Source: Spirochaetia bacterium
Lineage (GTDB): Bacteria; Spirochaetota; Spirochaetia; DSM-27196; Salinispiraceae
Direction of reading: 5' to 3'
DNA length: 64,000 bases
NCBI GenBank assembly: GCA_038204425.1
Contig: JBBRCZ010000004.1
Location: 64,001-128,000, forward strand
A model generated the notes under the pieces. The model was not told the DNA's origin. It searched no databases and was given only the letters and a program-made list of their open reading frames with translations. This document shows, in pieces, positions 14,597 to 22,106 of this stretch. The stretch's first letter is position 1. Each line of letters opens with the position of its first letter. A program made the position numbers and the translations under genes.

Positions 14597-15808
14597 GTGC
14601 TGACTTGTTCAAAAAAGGTGTTTCGTAGCGTGTTCAGGAATAAGCCAAAAAAAAGAGTTCTAGTGCCGTATTATGCGGCAGGTTACGGACACGTTTCCTT
14701 TGCCAAGGCGTTGGTTCACCACCTTAAAGCGTTGAGACCAGAATGGGAATATCGGCTTTTTGATCCTGGCAAAGAGCTTGCCGACCAAAATTTGGATCAC
14801 GCATATGTAGAACAATGGCGCAATATTCTTGCACTCCCGTGGATTGTAAAAAAATCAATTTTTGCTTTGGAGCCTGTCTTTGCCGGAATCTACCTAGGCA
14901 ATCACCGTCGCATCGTCGCCCAAGCCACCCCCCAGGCGGCCCGTTTTTTGGCCGAGTGGAAGCCCGATGCGATAGTTCCTACCCATTGGGGCTGCAGTCA
15001 CCTTTTTGCAGCGGCGCGAGAATTGCCTGACGCCCAGGGCATTCGCCCACCAATTTGGTATGTGTATTCGGAGCTTGGCGGTCATTATCGTTTGCTCAAC
15101 TGCGGTGCAGATCATTATTTTGCCCTGACGGCCTTAGCAAAGGAAGACTTAATTTCTACCGGAATAGAACCAGGCAAAATAGAAGTCATTGACTTTATTA
15201 TTCAGTCTTATCTTCAAGAGCGCCTCTCACTGACTCATGATCCTGTTCTTCGAGTACAAGCGCGACGAGAGCTCGGCCTAGATCCCGAGCGTTATACCGT
15301 GCTTTATTCTCTTGGCGGAGAGGGTATTGGTAGTGCGATGGACTTTTTATCTGACTATTACCATAATGGAAAAAGTGCTCAGATTATTGTACTAACCGGC
15401 AAGAACAACCAATTAAAAAAGAAGATCGAGCGTTCTCTTCCTTATCGCACCGGCCGTGCTTTGATAAGAGCCTATTCTTTTATGCCTGATCTAACCAAAA
15501 TATTTATGGCATGCGACGCCCAAGCTGGAAAGTCAGGTACCTGCAGTGTTATGGAAGCGATCAAGATGCACAAACCGCTGGTCATTTGCCAGCCAGGCGC
15601 TCCCAACGAAGAAGAAAATATGAAGTATGTTACCAGCCAAGGAATGGGCTGGTACACACCAAAGCCACGCATGTTTACTGACATGGTAGAAGAACTTGCA
15701 CTTGGAAGCGACAGAGTTAGCCTAGCGCTAGGCAAGCTTTCACAAGTAGGCGATGGCAATGGCGCTGCAAGGATTGCCGAATACGTTGTCAAATCACTTA
15801 GCAAATAG
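14597..15808 (+). CDS. MGDG synthase / UgtP-like glycosyltransferase (GT28)
   Basis: AAGYGHVS, PDAIVPTH, TGKNNQL, GKSGTCSVMEA, NEEENM. Start uncertain. Confidence 0.8.
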   Translation: MLTCSKKVFRSVFRNKPKKRVLVPYYAAGYGHVSFAKALVHHLKALRPEWEYRLFDPGKELADQNLDHAYVEQWRNILALPWIVKKSIFALEPVFAGIYLGNHRRIVAQATPQAARFLAEWKPDAIVPTHWGCSHLFAAARELPDAQGIRPPIWYVYSELGGHYRLLNCGADHYFALTALAKEDLISTGIEPGKIEVIDFIIQSYLQERLSLTHDPVLRVQARRELGLDPERYTVLYSLGGEGIGSAMDFLSDYYHNGKSAQIIVLTGKNNQLKKKIERSLPYRTGRALIRAYSFMPDLTKIFMACDAQAGKSGTCSVMEAIKMHKPLVICQPGAPNEEENMKYVTSQGMGWYTPKPRMFTDMVEELALGSDRVSLALGKLSQVGDGNGAARIAEYVVKSLSK

Positions 15809-16715
15809 AGCAGTCTGCCGCTTTGCTCCAACATGTTCGGGGTCTGCCCATCCTGGCACCTTGTTGGCAGCCATGTTGGCATATTTGGATGCCAAAAAAA
15901 ACGACGCACGCTTTGTTCTACGCATGGAGGATATTGATCCCTCAAGTGTCACTGATCATTGGCGCTCAACCTTGCTCAAGGATCTAGAGTGGTTTGATAT
16001 CAAGGGCGACTGCTTTAGCTGGCAATCAGAAAACACGAGTGCCCATGAGTCTATGATGGACCAGCTGGCTCTCACCCAGCGTCTGTATGCATGCAACTGT
16101 AGTCGAGCTAAAATTGCACGTGCTGGCCAGGCATCTTTAGCCGGCGGCTGGGTCTATCCTGGAACCTGCAGATCCTTGACTTTGCAAGATTGGCGGTCTT
16201 CAAATGCTAATATTCGCATCAACTTGGAAGGCATAAAGATTAGTCTCAAAGACCAATCGGGAGCTGATCTCAGTCAAGAGCCGAGCATTGCAATGGGCGA
16301 CCCGCTGCTTGTCAGAAAAGACGGCAGCTTTACCTATCATTTGGCGGTGGTAGCAGACGATCATTTGGCTGGTGTAAATCGGATAGTTCGTGGTCGTGAC
16401 CTTGCAAGCTCCAGTGCCATTCAGGTGGCCCTGCGACAGCTGCTAGGCTGGCCAGTTCCAAGCTACCGGCATCACCTGCTGCTCTTAGAAGAACGGGGAC
16501 AAAAATTTGCTAAATTTCATGGAGCTGTCTGTTTGACCGACTTGCAAAAGCACTATTCACCTGACCAGCTCCGTGGTGTTCTGGCCCATGCTTGTGGACT
16601 TATTGGCCAAGCCCGCGAACTAAGCTTTCATGCGGCGTTGTCGGTGTTTGATTGGCAGTCGGTTAGGTCTGACGACCTCGTTATGCACTGGGACGGTAAG
16701 CGCTTAAGTTTTTGA
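15786..16715 (+). CDS. gluQ: Glutamyl-Q tRNA(Asp) synthetase (GluRS catalytic-domain paralogue)
   Basis: RFAPTCSGSAHPGT, LRMEDID, CNCSR..YPGTCR, YHLAVVADD, VRGRDL, KFAK. No anticodon-binding domain. TTG start is inferred. Confidence 0.85.
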   Translation: MSNHLANRAVCRFAPTCSGSAHPGTLLAAMLAYLDAKKNDARFVLRMEDIDPSSVTDHWRSTLLKDLEWFDIKGDCFSWQSENTSAHESMMDQLALTQRLYACNCSRAKIARAGQASLAGGWVYPGTCRSLTLQDWRSSNANIRINLEGIKISLKDQSGADLSQEPSIAMGDPLLVRKDGSFTYHLAVVADDHLAGVNRIVRGRDLASSSAIQVALRQLLGWPVPSYRHHLLLLEERGQKFAKFHGAVCLTDLQKHYSPDQLRGVLAHACGLIGQARELSFHAALSVFDWQSVRSDDLVMHWDGKRLSF

Positions 16716-16718
16716 CCA

Positions 16719-17660
16719 CTAAGCTTGTTTGCGTCCAATCAAAACAAGCGGCTCAATCTCTGGCCAAGCTGGGTCAGACCCGGCAATATGGCAGCGAACA
16801 TCAAGAAAACCACACTGCCCGAGCCAATCAATTAAGTCATTTTGGTCAAAACCCAGCCAAAAATCTGCAAACCGCTCTTTGATCCACTCTTGATTATGGG
16901 CATGCAAATCAAGTATCAGAAGTCGGCCTCCATCTTTTAGCAAACGCCAAGCCTCTTGAATGACCGCTCGCGGTTGAGCAGCATGATGTAGGGCATGGCT
17001 AACGACCACCAGATCCCAAGAATTGGCGGCCAAACCAGTTGCTTCCATGGGGGCCTTTTTAAAGCTCAGGTTTGGCAGCGCCAAGCCTGCATGCAGCGAT
17101 TGCGCCCCACTTATCTGTTCATCACTATTGTCTATTCCAGTAACTCGATTACCACTTGCCGCCAACATGGCCGACAAGCGTCCAACACCGCAACCAAGGT
17201 CAACTACGTCAAGCTCGCTGATTAACTCAATCAATCCACGGCCAAGCGCCTCCCAAGTCTGCCCTGGACTTACTTGGTTCTGAGCCTCCCGGCTGGCAAA
17301 AAAGCTGAGCGAAGCTTCTCTGCGACGTTCAAAAATATCCAACAGACGTCTCTGGTCACGTTCGTGCCATTCGTAGGCCTGGGCTTGCTGCAAAACTTCG
17401 TCGCAGATTCTGCGCGTAAATTCATCATCAAAAGTTTGGCTGAGTCGATAGTAAACGAATTGGTTTTCTTTACGGAAGCTAACTAAGTTTGCCTCTTTGA
17501 GCTGTCCCAGTTGGGTAGAAAGTGTTGACTGCCCAATTCGCAGCACTTCGGTTAGTTCCTTGACAGTAAGTTCGTTTCCCTGAAGTACCGAGAGTATCCT
17601 CAAGCGAGTTTGATCGCCCAAAAGCTTGAGAACTAAGGTTATGTCGCGATCACTGTGCAT
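16719..17660 (-). CDS. ArsR-family regulator fused to a SAM-dependent methyltransferase domain (SahR-like)
   Basis: N-terminal ArsR wHTH (TRLRIL..ELTVKEL..QSTLSTQL). C-terminal VVDLGCGVG, HALHHA, GGRLLILDL, WLGF. Confidence 0.9.
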   Translation of the reverse strand: MHSDRDITLVLKLLGDQTRLRILSVLQGNELTVKELTEVLRIGQSTLSTQLGQLKEANLVSFRKENQFVYYRLSQTFDDEFTRRICDEVLQQAQAYEWHERDQRRLLDIFERRREASLSFFASREAQNQVSPGQTWEALGRGLIELISELDVVDLGCGVGRLSAMLAASGNRVTGIDNSDEQISGAQSLHAGLALPNLSFKKAPMEATGLAANSWDLVVVSHALHHAAQPRAVIQEAWRLLKDGGRLLILDLHAHNQEWIKERFADFWLGFDQNDLIDWLGQCGFLDVRCHIAGSDPAWPEIEPLVLIGRKQA

Positions 17661-17701
17661 AAGACCCTTAGCATAGCACAGCTGGCCCGGTACAAGCTAC
17701 C

Positions 17702-17730
17702 TTGACATTGGTGACTACTGTGCGTAATTT
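17702..17730 (+). promoter_or_regulatory. Putative sigma70 promoter of the pan/coa operon
   Basis: TTGACA-N17-TAATTT. Confidence 0.65.
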
Positions 17731-17738
17731 AGAAGCAT

Positions 17739-17893
17739 CGCTTTCCCATATGGCAAGCGCACTGTCTCCCGAGAGGACCCTATCCAGTTGGAAGGGTACC
17801 GGCAAGGAACTGACAGCCCACGCCCGTGATCTAGCAATCACAGACTTGTGCCGTTCTACCCTGCTCCTTTTTCGGGAGTTGAGAGGAGACGGT
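17739..17893 (+). ncRNA. Structured 5' leader of panB, candidate cis-regulatory RNA (pan-motif-like)
   Basis: Several hairpins plus long-range pairing ACTGTCTCC (17761-69) with GGAGACGGT (17885-93) covering the RBS. Confidence 0.5.
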
Positions 17894-18739
17894 ATGTTTA
17901 CTATTCCTGATTTTCAAAAGAAGAAGCAAAAAGGGCAGCCCTTGGTTTTGCTGACTTGCTACGATGCTTGGTCGGCAAGCCTCTTGGAAGCAAGCAGTCT
18001 AGACGCTGTCTTAGTTGGTGACAGTGTGGCGATGGTCGTGCATGGCTTGCCCGACACCTTGGCGGCCGACATGGATATGATGTGTCTCCACACTGCCTCG
18101 GTCAGACGTGGTTCTGACAAGCTTTGCATAATAGCCGACATGCCCTTTATGGCTAGTCGCGCCAGCGTCAAAGAAGGCATGCACAACGCTGCCCGCTTAA
18201 TGCGCTGCGGTGCGCAGGCAGTAAAAATAGAAGGTTGGCGAGGGCACCAAAAGCTCATTCCACGCTTGGTCGACGCTGGTATTCCTGTAATGGGACACCT
18301 CGGCTTGCTGCCCCAGTCGGTACATCTTAGCGGCGGCTATAAAGTGCAAGGTCGTGATCAATCTGCTGCAGACACCTTAGTCAAAGAGGCCCAAGAACTA
18401 GAAAAAGCGGGTTGTTTTTCTGTAGTTCTAGAATGTGTTCCAAGCTCACTTGCCAAAGCCGTTTCTAAAGTAGTCAAAATTCCTGTTATTGGCATTGGCG
18501 CTGGCAATCAAACCGACGGCCAAATATTGGTCTTCCACGACTTACTTGGGCTGGGCACGCGCCCACTGCCACGTTTTGTAAGACAAGTTCTCAATGCCAA
18601 CACTCAAATGTTAGACGCCGTCGAGAGTTACTGCAGTCTTGTCCGTCAAGGTGACTTTCCCAATATCGCTGAATCTTACGGTGAATCATACGATCAATCA
18701 AACAGCGAATCCACCAGTGCCGAGGCTCAACATGGCTAG
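17894..18739 (+). CDS. panB: 3-methyl-2-oxobutanoate hydroxymethyltransferase
   Basis: LTCYDA, LVGDS, ADMPF, AVKIEG, VMGHLGLLPQS, GGYKVQGR, IGIGAG..DGQILV. GAGGAG RBS before the ATG at 17894. Confidence 0.97.
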   Translation: MFTIPDFQKKKQKGQPLVLLTCYDAWSASLLEASSLDAVLVGDSVAMVVHGLPDTLAADMDMMCLHTASVRRGSDKLCIIADMPFMASRASVKEGMHNAARLMRCGAQAVKIEGWRGHQKLIPRLVDAGIPVMGHLGLLPQSVHLSGGYKVQGRDQSAADTLVKEAQELEKAGCFSVVLECVPSSLAKAVSKVVKIPVIGIGAGNQTDGQILVFHDLLGLGTRPLPRFVRQVLNANTQMLDAVESYCSLVRQGDFPNIAESYGESYDQSNSESTSAEAQHG

Positions 18740-20884: not shown

Positions 20885-21720
20885 TGGCAAGCAATCAGAA
20901 CAAAGCAGCTGGCCTAACCTTATGTTTGGATGTTGGCAACTCCAACCTTTACGCTGGTGTATACGACAAGAATCAAAACATCTTGCTTAGGTTCAGAAAA
21001 ACCTCACATGGTGGTTCAAGTGCTGACGAGTACGGTGTTTTTCTGAAGTCAGTCTTACGAGAAAATAACATAGATCCGCTCCAAGTTGATTCAATTGGCA
21101 TTTGTTCGGTGGTTCCAGATGCTATTTACTCAATCCGACGAGCCTGCATTAAGTATTTTGCTAGCGAACCATTTTTGTTGCAGGCAGGAGTCAAGACTGG
21201 CTTACACATTATGTATCGCAATCCTCAAGATGTGGGTGCCGACCGCATTGCCAACGCGGTTGCAGTCGGGGTGCGCTTTCCAAACATCAACTGCATTGTA
21301 GTAGACTTTGGCACCGCCACTACCTTTGATACGATCAGCGCCAGCAAAAAATATCTTGGTGGCGCAATATTGCCAGGTCTGCGCATTAGCATGGAAGCTC
21401 TTGAGGAGCGCACAGCTCGACTTCCTTCAGTAGAAATAGTTGCGGCCGACCTTGCTTGCGGCAGAACGACTATCGAGAGTATTCAAGCGGGTTTGTTTTT
21501 TGGGCACATGGGCATGATTAAGGAAATCAGCTCCCGTATTAGCCAAGAATGTTTCTCTGGCGAAAAAGTGCTCTTGATCGCAACAGGCGGATTTGCAAGT
21601 TTATTTGCTGACAGTGGACTGTTTGATCACATTCTACCCGACTTGGTACTCGAGGGTCTCTACCACACCATGCAGATAAACAAGAGCGAACTTATTCAAT
21701 TAAAAGGAGTTAAACAATAA
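20881..21720 (+). CDS. coaX: Type III pantothenate kinase
   Basis: LDVGNS, GADRIAN, VVDFGTATT, GGAILPG, ATGG. Confidence 0.95.
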   Translation: MMASNQNKAAGLTLCLDVGNSNLYAGVYDKNQNILLRFRKTSHGGSSADEYGVFLKSVLRENNIDPLQVDSIGICSVVPDAIYSIRRACIKYFASEPFLLQAGVKTGLHIMYRNPQDVGADRIANAVAVGVRFPNINCIVVDFGTATTFDTISASKKYLGGAILPGLRISMEALEERTARLPSVEIVAADLACGRTTIESIQAGLFFGHMGMIKEISSRISQECFSGEKVLLIATGGFASLFADSGLFDHILPDLVLEGLYHTMQINKSELIQLKGVKQ

Positions 21721-22106
21721 TGCAAGTCATCTTATTAAAGGGTAAAATCCACCGCGCTACCGTAACTGGAGCAGTAATCGACTACGAGGGTTCAATTGGC
21801 ATTTGCCCTGATCTGATAGCAGCTGCAGGCTTTTTACCCTGGGAAAAAGTAGACATTTATAACGTCAACACTGGAGCGAGATTTTCTACCTACGTCATCG
21901 TGGGCAATAAAGCGGAGATCACCCTCAACGGCGCAGCGGCCCGTTTAGTTCAGACAGGCGACTTATTGATTATCGCAGCTTATTGCTCAATCGAAGCACG
22001 TCTTGCTCCTGAACACCGCCCAACGATAGTACTAGTAGATCAAAACAATAATCCTGTCCCAGTTGTCGCAGATCCCCATGGTGGTGCACAACTTCGGGGT
22101 CAATAG
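21720..22106 (+). CDS. panD: Aspartate 1-decarboxylase
   Basis: KIHRATVT, YEGS (Gly-Ser cleavage site), RFSTY, LNGAAAR. Confidence 0.97.
   Translation: MQVILLKGKIHRATVTGAVIDYEGSIGICPDLIAAAGFLPWEKVDIYNVNTGARFSTYVIVGNKAEITLNGAAARLVQTGDLLIIAAYCSIEARLAPEHRPTIVLVDQNNNPVPVVADPHGGAQLRGQ

What the first reader, a model, noticed from the sequence alone, without database searches (positions are those of the whole stretch)
17739..17896. Candidate RNA switch controlling a pantothenate/CoA operon
Seen: a TTGACA-N17-TAATTT promoter (17702-30) lies about 160 nt before the panB ATG, and the leader is unusually self-complementary. Hairpins: CGCTT/AAGCG (17739-59); GG-ACCCT-A-TCC-AGTT-GGA-AGGGT-A-CC (17775-800, two bulged As); GTGAT/ATCAC (17826-41). 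The strand ACTGTCTCCCGAGAGGA (17761-77) has three competing partners: GACAG (17812-16), TCCTTTTTCGGGAG (17865-78) and GGAGACGGT (17885-93). The last is the Shine-Dalgarno through to the ATG, a 9-bp helix with one G-U. AGGGTA (17793-98) can alternatively pair with TACCCT (17857-62). Known: the pan RNA motif (bulged stem-loops upstream of pantothenate genes, ligand unresolved) was described from other phyla, and I know of no validated natural CoA riboswitch. Inference: a translational ON/OFF switch responding to CoA, pantothenate or an RNA-binding protein.
Basis: partly seen in the sequence, partly recalled or inferred. Interest (0 to 1): 0.8.

Follow-up and report, generated by a model that had tools for sequence, protein, structure and literature searches.

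The report
Pan RNA hairpin gating pantothenate translation
The leader of this bacterium's vitamin B5/coenzyme A operon holds a variant of the long-unexplained "pan" RNA hairpin, wired to hide the ribosome binding site, and comparing genomes points to the enzyme pantothenate kinase (CoaX) as the protein that probably binds it.

Summary
Real, conserved cis-regulatory RNA; a variant of the orphan pan motif (Weinberg 2010) that Rfam misses. Hairpin 17775-17800 has exact pan geometry (2 bp, bulged A, 5 bp, bulged A). Seven related leaders keep it, with compensatory changes, nested in stems that hide the Shine-Dalgarno. Holding the hairpin makes the ribosome site 1.7-3.8 kcal/mol harder to open in those seven, but only 0.25 in this copy. 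The same hairpin type precedes pan/coa genes at 46 of 55 pattern hits in the window's class and in 30 of 30 Bdellovibrionaceae loci read. It stays on stand-alone coaX where panB/C/D are lost, follows an altered CoaX onto a vitamin-B6 operon, and is missing from CoA operons without coaX. Best reading: the CoaX dimer binds it and represses translation (about 0.5). Against: enterococci carry pan RNA but no CoaX; no binding data exist. Direct CoA riboswitch about 0.12. The scan found canonical pan leaders on other DNA before; none of the nine notes shown names this architecture or a partner.

The parts
17702..17730 (+). Probable sigma-70 promoter (TTGACA, 17 nt, TAATTT); start site inferred near 17737
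   Evidence: Sequence; not called by the consensus scan; similar sites in L005, L106, L107, L108 lie 123-136 nt before the conserved GTCTCC, here only 62 nt
17739..17759 (+). Small hairpin CGCTT/AAGCG at the place where relatives have a second (upstream) pan hairpin; lacks both bulged As; relic or unrelated
   Evidence: upstream pan hairpin of perfect geometry in 6 of 7 relatives, one mismatch in the seventh
17761..17769 (+). Anti-Shine-Dalgarno strand; core GTCTCC (17764-69) pairs with GGAGAC (17885-90)
   Evidence: Invariant in 8 of 8 leaders; no compensatory change, so pairing is inferred
17766..17777 (+). Switch strand (AGRAAGG-type): pairs with the 3' pyrimidine strand in the ON fold; its last GG is also the foot of the pan hairpin
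17775..17800 (+). pan hairpin: GG-ACCCU-A-UCC-loop-GGA-AGGGU-A-CC, bulged A at 17782 and 17798; proposed protein-binding site
   Evidence: Same geometry as the pan consensus structure; 94.9% of 79 cells paired, 4 of 10 pairs with changes on both sides
17801..17864 (+). Variable insert (includes GTGAT/ATCAC hairpin 17826-41 and TACCCT 17857-62); length and sequence differ among relatives
   Evidence: 39-118 nt from hairpin end to start codon
17865..17878 (+). 3' pyrimidine strand (UCCUUUYU-type): captures the switch strand (ON) or folds back on the Shine-Dalgarno (OFF)
   Evidence: Conserved in 8 of 8; folds
17883..17896 (+). Shine-Dalgarno (GAGGAG/GGAGAC) and panB start codon
17894..18739 (+). 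panB, ketopantoate hydroxymethyltransferase
   Evidence: PF02548
18732..19592 (+). panC, pantothenate synthetase
   Evidence: PF02569
19589..20884 (+). coaBC
   Evidence: PF02441 + PF04127
20881..21720 (+). coaX, type III pantothenate kinase with usual motifs; proposed binder of the hairpin
   Evidence: PF03309, NF009855 over cut-off, motifs
21720..22106 (+). panD, aspartate decarboxylase
   Evidence: PF02261
16719..17660 (-). Divergent ArsR-HTH + SAM methyltransferase gene; neighbour only, not part of the element
   Evidence: not beside the pan operon in 4 of 4 relatives

Best explanation
The leader is a translational operator of the pan family. The two-bulged-A hairpin is a nearly two-fold symmetric site for a dimeric protein, most likely the operon's own type III pantothenate kinase CoaX. 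Unbound, the purine strand in front of the hairpin pairs with the pyrimidine strand near the 3' end and borrows the hairpin's two foot pairs, which takes both anti-SD strands out of play (ON). When the protein holds the whole hairpin including its foot, GUCUCC or the pyrimidine strand pairs with the Shine-Dalgarno (OFF). Binding is probably switched on by pantothenate loading of CoaX, giving the feedback that type III kinases lack at the enzyme level. Shown: sequence, conservation, gene context, co-occurrence. Computed: the folds. Inferred: direction (about 0.7), CoaX as binder (about 0.5), pantothenate as effector (about 0.3).
For: Geometry equals the pan consensus and covaries. Holding the hairpin raises the cost of opening the ribosome site by 1.66-3.75 kcal/mol in 7 of 8 leaders; the SD-only value is reached by at most 2 of 25 shuffles in 6 of 8. 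In Desulfobacterota pan leaders 22 of 29 have a terminator by a crude scan and 14 of these an antiterminator of 6 bp or more that uses the hairpin foot: same logic, hairpin held = OFF. For CoaX: 12 hairpins sit before a coaX that is the first gene; five 98-99% complete genomes with the hairpin have no PanB, PanC or PanD match; PanC also missing in 5 of 5 others; PanD missing in 5 of 35 and CoaX present in 35 of 35 Desulfobacterota with an RF01749 hit; in 7 genomes the hairpin precedes an altered CoaX clade followed by pdxS-pdxT; 3 of 3 coaX operons of G618 and 2 of 2 of G632 are headed by a hairpin; the CoA operons of G626, G690, G681, which use pantoate kinase and phosphopantothenate synthetase and hold coaBC and panB but no coaX, have none at their head; three 99-100% complete genomes with the sister PanB lack CoaX, PanC and the hairpin. 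[quoted passage not shown]
Against: [quoted passage not shown] CoaX is so common in these phyla that its presence alone proves little, and the genomes are kin (the pdxST case is one origin). This genome's own copy shows no computed coupling (0.25 kcal/mol), lacks the upstream hairpin, and its SD is predicted closed either way (5-7 kcal/mol). The long-range stems are conserved but show no compensatory change. No RNA-binding signature was found in the CoaX alignment. No binding or expression data exist.
Confidence: 0.5

Rival explanations
1. Same operator and same OFF logic, but the binder is a universal CoA-pathway enzyme (CoaBC, CoaD or CoaE) or an unknown RNA-binding protein that senses CoA.
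For: These enzymes are the only pathway proteins left in both enterococci (no CoaX) and the coaX-only spirochaetes (no PanB/C/D). CoaD is regulated by CoA (PMC12570885). Control of kinase, biosynthesis and transport genes fits an end-product signal.
Against: Three coaBC-containing CoA operons without coaX have no hairpin at their head while the altered coaX-pdxST operon of the same genomes has a tandem pair. A CoA sensor has no clear reason to control vitamin-B6 synthase.
Confidence: 0.25
2. A true riboswitch: the hairpin, alone or in tandem, binds CoA, dephospho-CoA or phosphopantetheine directly. It would be the first natural CoA riboswitch.
For: Works across phyla with three platforms: terminator, start-codon overlap and nested SD stems. 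Explains the enterococci. No CoA riboswitch is known (PMC9971707 passages).
Against: Only about 26 nt, symmetric, and in the upstream copies everything except the two As changes freely (26 of 45 loci), the pattern of a shape-read protein site; loops vary from 4 to 38 nt, so no kissing. The pdxST context and the empty CoA operons do not fit.
Confidence: 0.12
3. The family is real but this genome's copy is decaying or constitutive: a new promoter removed the upstream hairpin and the 3' platform no longer responds.
For: Single hairpin, promoter 62 nt instead of 123-136 nt upstream, coupling 0.25 kcal/mol and 10 of 25 shuffles as high.
Against: The hairpin keeps both As and carries a double change that preserves pairing (G-C to U-A); single hairpins are common; three folds lie within 2.4 kcal/mol, inside the error of the model.
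Confidence: 0.09
4. PanB, PanC or PanD binds its own mRNA.
For: PanC is a homodimer (PMC7770189 section 13); when Desulfobacterota operons split, the hairpin stays with panC-panD and lone panB lacks it in 5 of 6. Fits the enterococci.
Against: Hairpins persist unchanged in five 98-99% complete genomes without any of the three.
Confidence: 0.04

Closest known systems
pan RNA motif (Rfam RF01749; Weinberg et al. 2010, PMC2864571)
   Same: Stem with two bulged As in the same register; upstream of panB/panC/panD; tandem in most relatives; proposed there as a dimeric-protein site.
   Different: No Rfam hit here even at E 10; GG-ACYYG/CRGGU-A-CC sequence type; single in this genome; 93 nt from the start codon and nested in long-range SD-hiding stems rather than followed by a terminator; outside the three phyla of the paper; regulon extends to coaX, transporters and pdxST.
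M. tuberculosis CoaX as pantothenate sensor (PMC11626117)
   Same: A type III kinase used as a regulator of pantothenate synthesis; one of its two pseudokinase positions (the H229 column) is also changed in the 7 pdxST-linked CoaX.
   Different: Acts on protein turnover through Dop, not on RNA; no RNA binding reported in the sections read.
Enzyme- or protein-bound mRNA operators such as PyrR sites, the thrS operator and the MS2 coat hairpin (recalled, no call)
   Same: Small hairpin read by a dimer; metabolite-dependent or autogenous repression; bulged adenines in protein pockets in the MS2 case.
   Different: Different proteins and folds; only an analogy.
SAM-I riboswitch (considered from a recalled resemblance)
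   Same: AGAG..GG..CC..GGCAA run and a SAM-methyltransferase regulator gene next door.
   Different: No Rfam hit; the resembling bases are not conserved; the neighbour gene is absent in relatives.

Membership tests
pan motif (RF01749) | Stem interrupted by two conserved bulged A residues (2-3 bp, 3' A, 5 bp, 5' A, upper stem) | tested here: met
   Compared with SS_cons and rows of the authors' alignment; both As invariant in 8 of 8
pan motif (RF01749) | Lies upstream of panB, panC or panD operons | tested here: met
pan motif (RF01749) | Stem supported by covariation | tested here: met
   4 of 10 pairs with double changes, 0 of 500 shuffles reach the paired fraction, slid controls 27-48% against 94.9%; 3 of the 8 rows were found by a pattern, so partly circular
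pan motif (RF01749) | Tandem arrangement (usual, not universal: single rows exist in the authors' alignment) | tested here: not met
   Single in this genome; tandem in 6 of 7 relatives with perfect geometry
pan motif (RF01749) | Scores over the Rfam gathering threshold (detection criterion) | tested here: not met
   hence filed as a variant
pan motif (RF01749) | Shares the (unknown) binding partner | not testable with these tools
   Partner not established in the papers searched
Metabolite-binding riboswitch | RNA alone binds a small molecule | not testable with these tools
   Needs in-line probing or SHAPE
Metabolite-binding riboswitch | Expression platform coupled to the sensing element | tested here: inconclusive
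   Computed coupling in 7 of 8 leaders but not in this copy; no covariation in the long-range stems
SAM-I riboswitch | Rfam match and conserved SAM pocket | tested here: not met

The most novel reading that the evidence does not exclude
Type III pantothenate kinase (CoaX) is a moonlighting RNA-binding repressor and the pan hairpin is its operator, with the two bulged adenines read by the two halves of the dimer. The enzyme-plus-hairpin unit is portable: it drives a terminator, blocks a start codon directly, or throws the nested SD switch seen here, and in one spirochaete lineage an altered CoaX and its hairpins were re-used to control vitamin-B6 synthase.
Probability: 0.45. Interest if true: 0.88.

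Novelty: new variant of a known kind. Interest (0 to 1): 0.72.

Why it matters
The pan motif has had no known partner since 2010, and how bacteria whose only pantothenate kinase is type III (not inhibited by CoA) control the pathway is open. The comparison removes PanB, PanC and PanD as general binders, names one candidate and gives a one-strain test: B. subtilis has the RNA and a viable coaX deletion (PMC11487621). It also shows that Rfam misses a large branch of the family, and the hairpin marks candidate pantothenate or pantetheine importers. If instead the RNA binds CoA itself, it would be the missing CoA riboswitch.

Tried and rejected
Rfam scans of the locus, five panB loci and 12 further loci: nothing relevant; RF01749 over whole genomes: no hit at the leaders. 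SAM-I likeness rejected. Link to the divergent ArsR-methyltransferase rejected. Coding explanation: the leader is open in the panB frame from 17702, but the motif falls in all three frames relative to the start among 8 leaders and precedes panC in two. DNA operator rejected by reasoning: the bulges break DNA dyad symmetry, G-U pairs are kept, loops run 4-38 nt. PanC was my leading candidate after and was dropped. The protein-seeded scan of named genomes gave 66 loci, none with the nested form. Nested-form pattern in 401 class genomes: 9 hits, control 4, only this genome and G002 real. Model R1 in 99 order genomes: only the 5 training loci strong, 7 weak hits without pan genes; in 151 Bdellovibrionota genomes it found none beside pan genes among 30 loci read, so it is insensitive to the bare hairpin. 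Signature-residue searches in PanB, PanC and CoaX were inconclusive. No RNA holder listed; contigs of 4 DNA runs showed no variants. A B. subtilis RNA-binding proteome supplement has no CoaX row, so it is uninformative. The PanB tree is the quick tree; the careful search did not finish. One structural paper on type III kinase is not held.

Full report
1. Observation. The leader (17661-17893) lies between a divergent ArsR-methyltransferase gene and panB-panC-coaBC-coaX-panD. It is not unusually stable: z -1.17 and -1.66. The promoter has a perfect -35 and a 3-of-6 -10 and is not called by the scan. Rfam gives nothing relevant at E up to 10, and RF01749 run over five whole genomes does not hit the leaders.

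2. Conservation. panB was found in 5 of 41 relatives including this genome and 7 of 99 genomes of the order. The four closest copies, picked by protein and not by motif, all carry GTCTCC, a purine strand, a hairpin ending GGGTACC, a variable insert, CCTTT and GGAGAC before the start. The two other order-level panB genes belong to another clade and lack it. A pattern scan of metagenomes gave 4 hits, 3 before panB or panC, two of them on separate contigs with the same record prefix, one before panB and one before panC-coaBC; the fourth has no 3' part and was dropped. A strict scanner for the geometry 2 bp, A, 5 bp, A, 2 bp hit 5 of 5 leaders of this clade and 0 of 96 other panB leaders; relaxed, it added 1 of 28 phylum leaders; background is 1-6% per window. 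On the 8 cores, 94.9% of 79 cells pair, 4 of 10 pairs show double changes, 0 of 500 shuffles reach the paired fraction and slid controls give 27-48%. The motif sits in all three frames relative to the start codon, so it is not coding.

3. Family. The authors' pan alignment (PMC2864571 supplementary file 5, parts 27-29) has the same register: foot, 3' bulged A, 5 bp, 5' bulged A, upper stem. The paper's passage describes a stem with two bulged As, mostly tandem, suggestive of a dimeric protein site, in three phyla. Six of 7 relatives have an upstream second hairpin of perfect geometry and the seventh one with a mismatch; this genome has only a hairpin without As there and a promoter about 65 nt closer. 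The same sequence type lies just before the start of the DUF2520-panB-panC-coaBC-coaX-panD operon in 30 of 30 Bdellovibrionaceae loci read (the 30 best of 118 matching genomes among 121; 20 of 20 operons read in full hold coaX). PanB of the nested group is a clade (SH 95) inside a clade with these (SH 100; quick tree of 85 rows). A pattern for the bare hairpin hit 52 of 396 genomes of the class (55 places; reversed control 2). Of 53 places read, 44 precede pan or coa genes, 1 is cut by a contig end and 8 do not; the 2 others were read earlier and precede panB. In 26 of 45 there is an upstream partner hairpin whose sequence varies freely around the two As.

4. Switch. In the nested leaders the purine strand can pair with the pyrimidine strand only at the expense of the hairpin's foot. 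Holding the complete hairpin raises the cost of opening the SD by 1.9-4.1 kcal/mol in 6 of 8; with the whole ribosome site, by 1.66-3.75 in 7 of 8; shuffling the region between hairpin and SD reaches the observed value in at most 2 of 25 trials for 6 of 8. This genome is the exception (0.22-0.25), because its ON helix can form in a slipped register beside an intact foot; its three main folds lie within 2.4 kcal/mol. The long-range stems are conserved but without double changes, so they are inferred. Direction is supported from outside: RF01749 hit 35 of 151 genomes of the Desulfotignum phylum (17 over cut-off); 28 of 30 loci read precede panB or panC; 22 of 29 have a terminator by a crude scan and 14 of those an antiterminator of 6 bp or more built from the hairpin foot. 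Terminators are already marked in the authors' annotated file (file 4 part 140). In the bare form an ATG or GTG lies within 4 nt of the hairpin end at 35 of 53 places, not all true starts. In all three layouts a held hairpin means OFF.

5. Partner. PanD is missing in 5 of the 35 Desulfobacterota with a hit (one of the five is a false RNA hit), CoaX in none. Twelve class-level hairpins precede coaX as first gene and one coaBC-coaX. Five such genomes, 98-99% complete, have no PanC, PanD or PanB match; five more have no PanC; PanB was found in 6 of 13. In 4 the coaX is followed by a family-5 ABC importer, in 7 by pdxS-pdxT. The 7 pdxST-linked CoaX form one clade (SH 96) and all have the TGG motif changed at the column of M. 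tuberculosis H229. G618 has three coaX operons and G632 two, each headed by a hairpin. G626, G690 and G681 make CoA by a pantoate kinase-like and a phosphopantothenate synthetase gene with coaBC and panB; these operons have no hairpin at the head (one weak internal hit in G681), while their coaX-pdxST operons have tandem hairpins. Three complete or nearly complete genomes with the sister PanB lack CoaX, PanC and the hairpin (one weak mismatched hit in L009). The hairpin therefore tracks coaX, not the biosynthetic genes and not coaBC. Known context: type III kinases lack CoA feedback (PMC12570885, section 5 part 1) and M. tuberculosis CoaX is a pantothenate sensor whose nucleotide binding is seen only with pantothenate (PMC11626117). 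From this I infer that pantothenate-loaded CoaX docks the two adenines; that step is speculation.

6. Against. E. faecalis V583 is in the pan alignment and has PanB, PanC, PanD and CoaA but no CoaX in the supplementary table of PMC6593275 (rows seen; E. faecium DO the same). Either those copies are recent passengers, or the binder is something all share (CoaBC, CoaD, CoaE, or a metabolite). CoaX is near-universal in the phyla sampled, and kin are not independent. No binding surface was evident. No RNA run was available. Odds: CoaX 0.5, other universal protein 0.25, direct metabolite 0.12, decayed copy 0.09, PanB/C/D 0.04.

7. Literature. Ten searches showed no paper naming a ligand or protein for the pan motif or describing it in spirochaetes or Bdellovibrionota; the library lacks most subscription papers, and the 2010 paper's Additional File 1 (DOC) and S3 PDF could not be read and may say more. 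Seen as passages only: PMC9971707 (no CoA riboswitch known), PMC5670726 and PMC4342826 (pan listed before panB), PMC11487621 (coaX deletion viable), PMC7770189 (section 13); PMC10265488 had no matching words. PyrR, thrS and MS2 analogies are recalled. Earlier scan notes describe canonical pan leaders with terminators and one before ECF-panT-coaX; look-ups by sequence and place found nothing like this leader.

8. Verdict. A real regulatory RNA, a new variant of the pan motif with a nested translational platform, and a concrete, testable candidate for the family's missing partner. Interest 0.72.

Noticed in passing
L257-L259, L270, L271, L306, L307 (G681, G690, G626, G618, G632, G546, G526): A clade of altered CoaX (TGG motif changed in all 7; GADR to GADL and DxGN to DxGS in 4) heads a pdxS-pdxT operon under pan hairpins: possible pseudokinase regulator or B6-vitamer kinase.
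   Followed up: partly
L300, L301, L302, L304 (G240, G220, G314, G304): Hairpin, coaX with GADL-IAD in place of GADR-IAN, then a family-5 substrate-binding protein and permease, in genomes without panBCD: candidate pantothenate or pantetheine importer and perhaps a kinase of changed specificity.
   Followed up: partly
L167:589-686 (G1090): Best-scoring RF01749 hit in Desulfobacterota precedes a family-5 substrate-binding protein, not a pan gene; fragmentary genome.
   Followed up: partly
L365:1710-3402, L366, L367 (G626, G690, G681): Archaeal-type pantoate kinase-like and phosphopantothenate synthetase genes in a bacterial operon with coaBC and panB.
   Followed up: partly
L007-L009, L370, L371 (G134, G070, G269): panB-coaBC-panD operon in 99-100% complete genomes with no PanC and no CoaX match; how they make phosphopantothenate is unexplained.
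   Followed up: no
window 16719-17660 (-): ArsR-HTH fused to a SAM methyltransferase domain (SahR-like by recall), divergent from panB; a possible promoter at about 17699-17670 would make it nearly leaderless.
   Followed up: no
window 15753-16715 (+): GluQRS-like tRNA synthetase paralogue converging on the ArsR-methyltransferase gene.
   Followed up: no
window 17702-17893 (+): The leader is an open frame continuous with panB from TTG 17702 / ATG 17750; frame not conserved in relatives.
   Followed up: yes
L107 and L108: Two contigs with the same record prefix carry near-identical nested leaders before panB and before panC-coaBC, i.e. a split operon with a duplicated regulator.
   Followed up: partly
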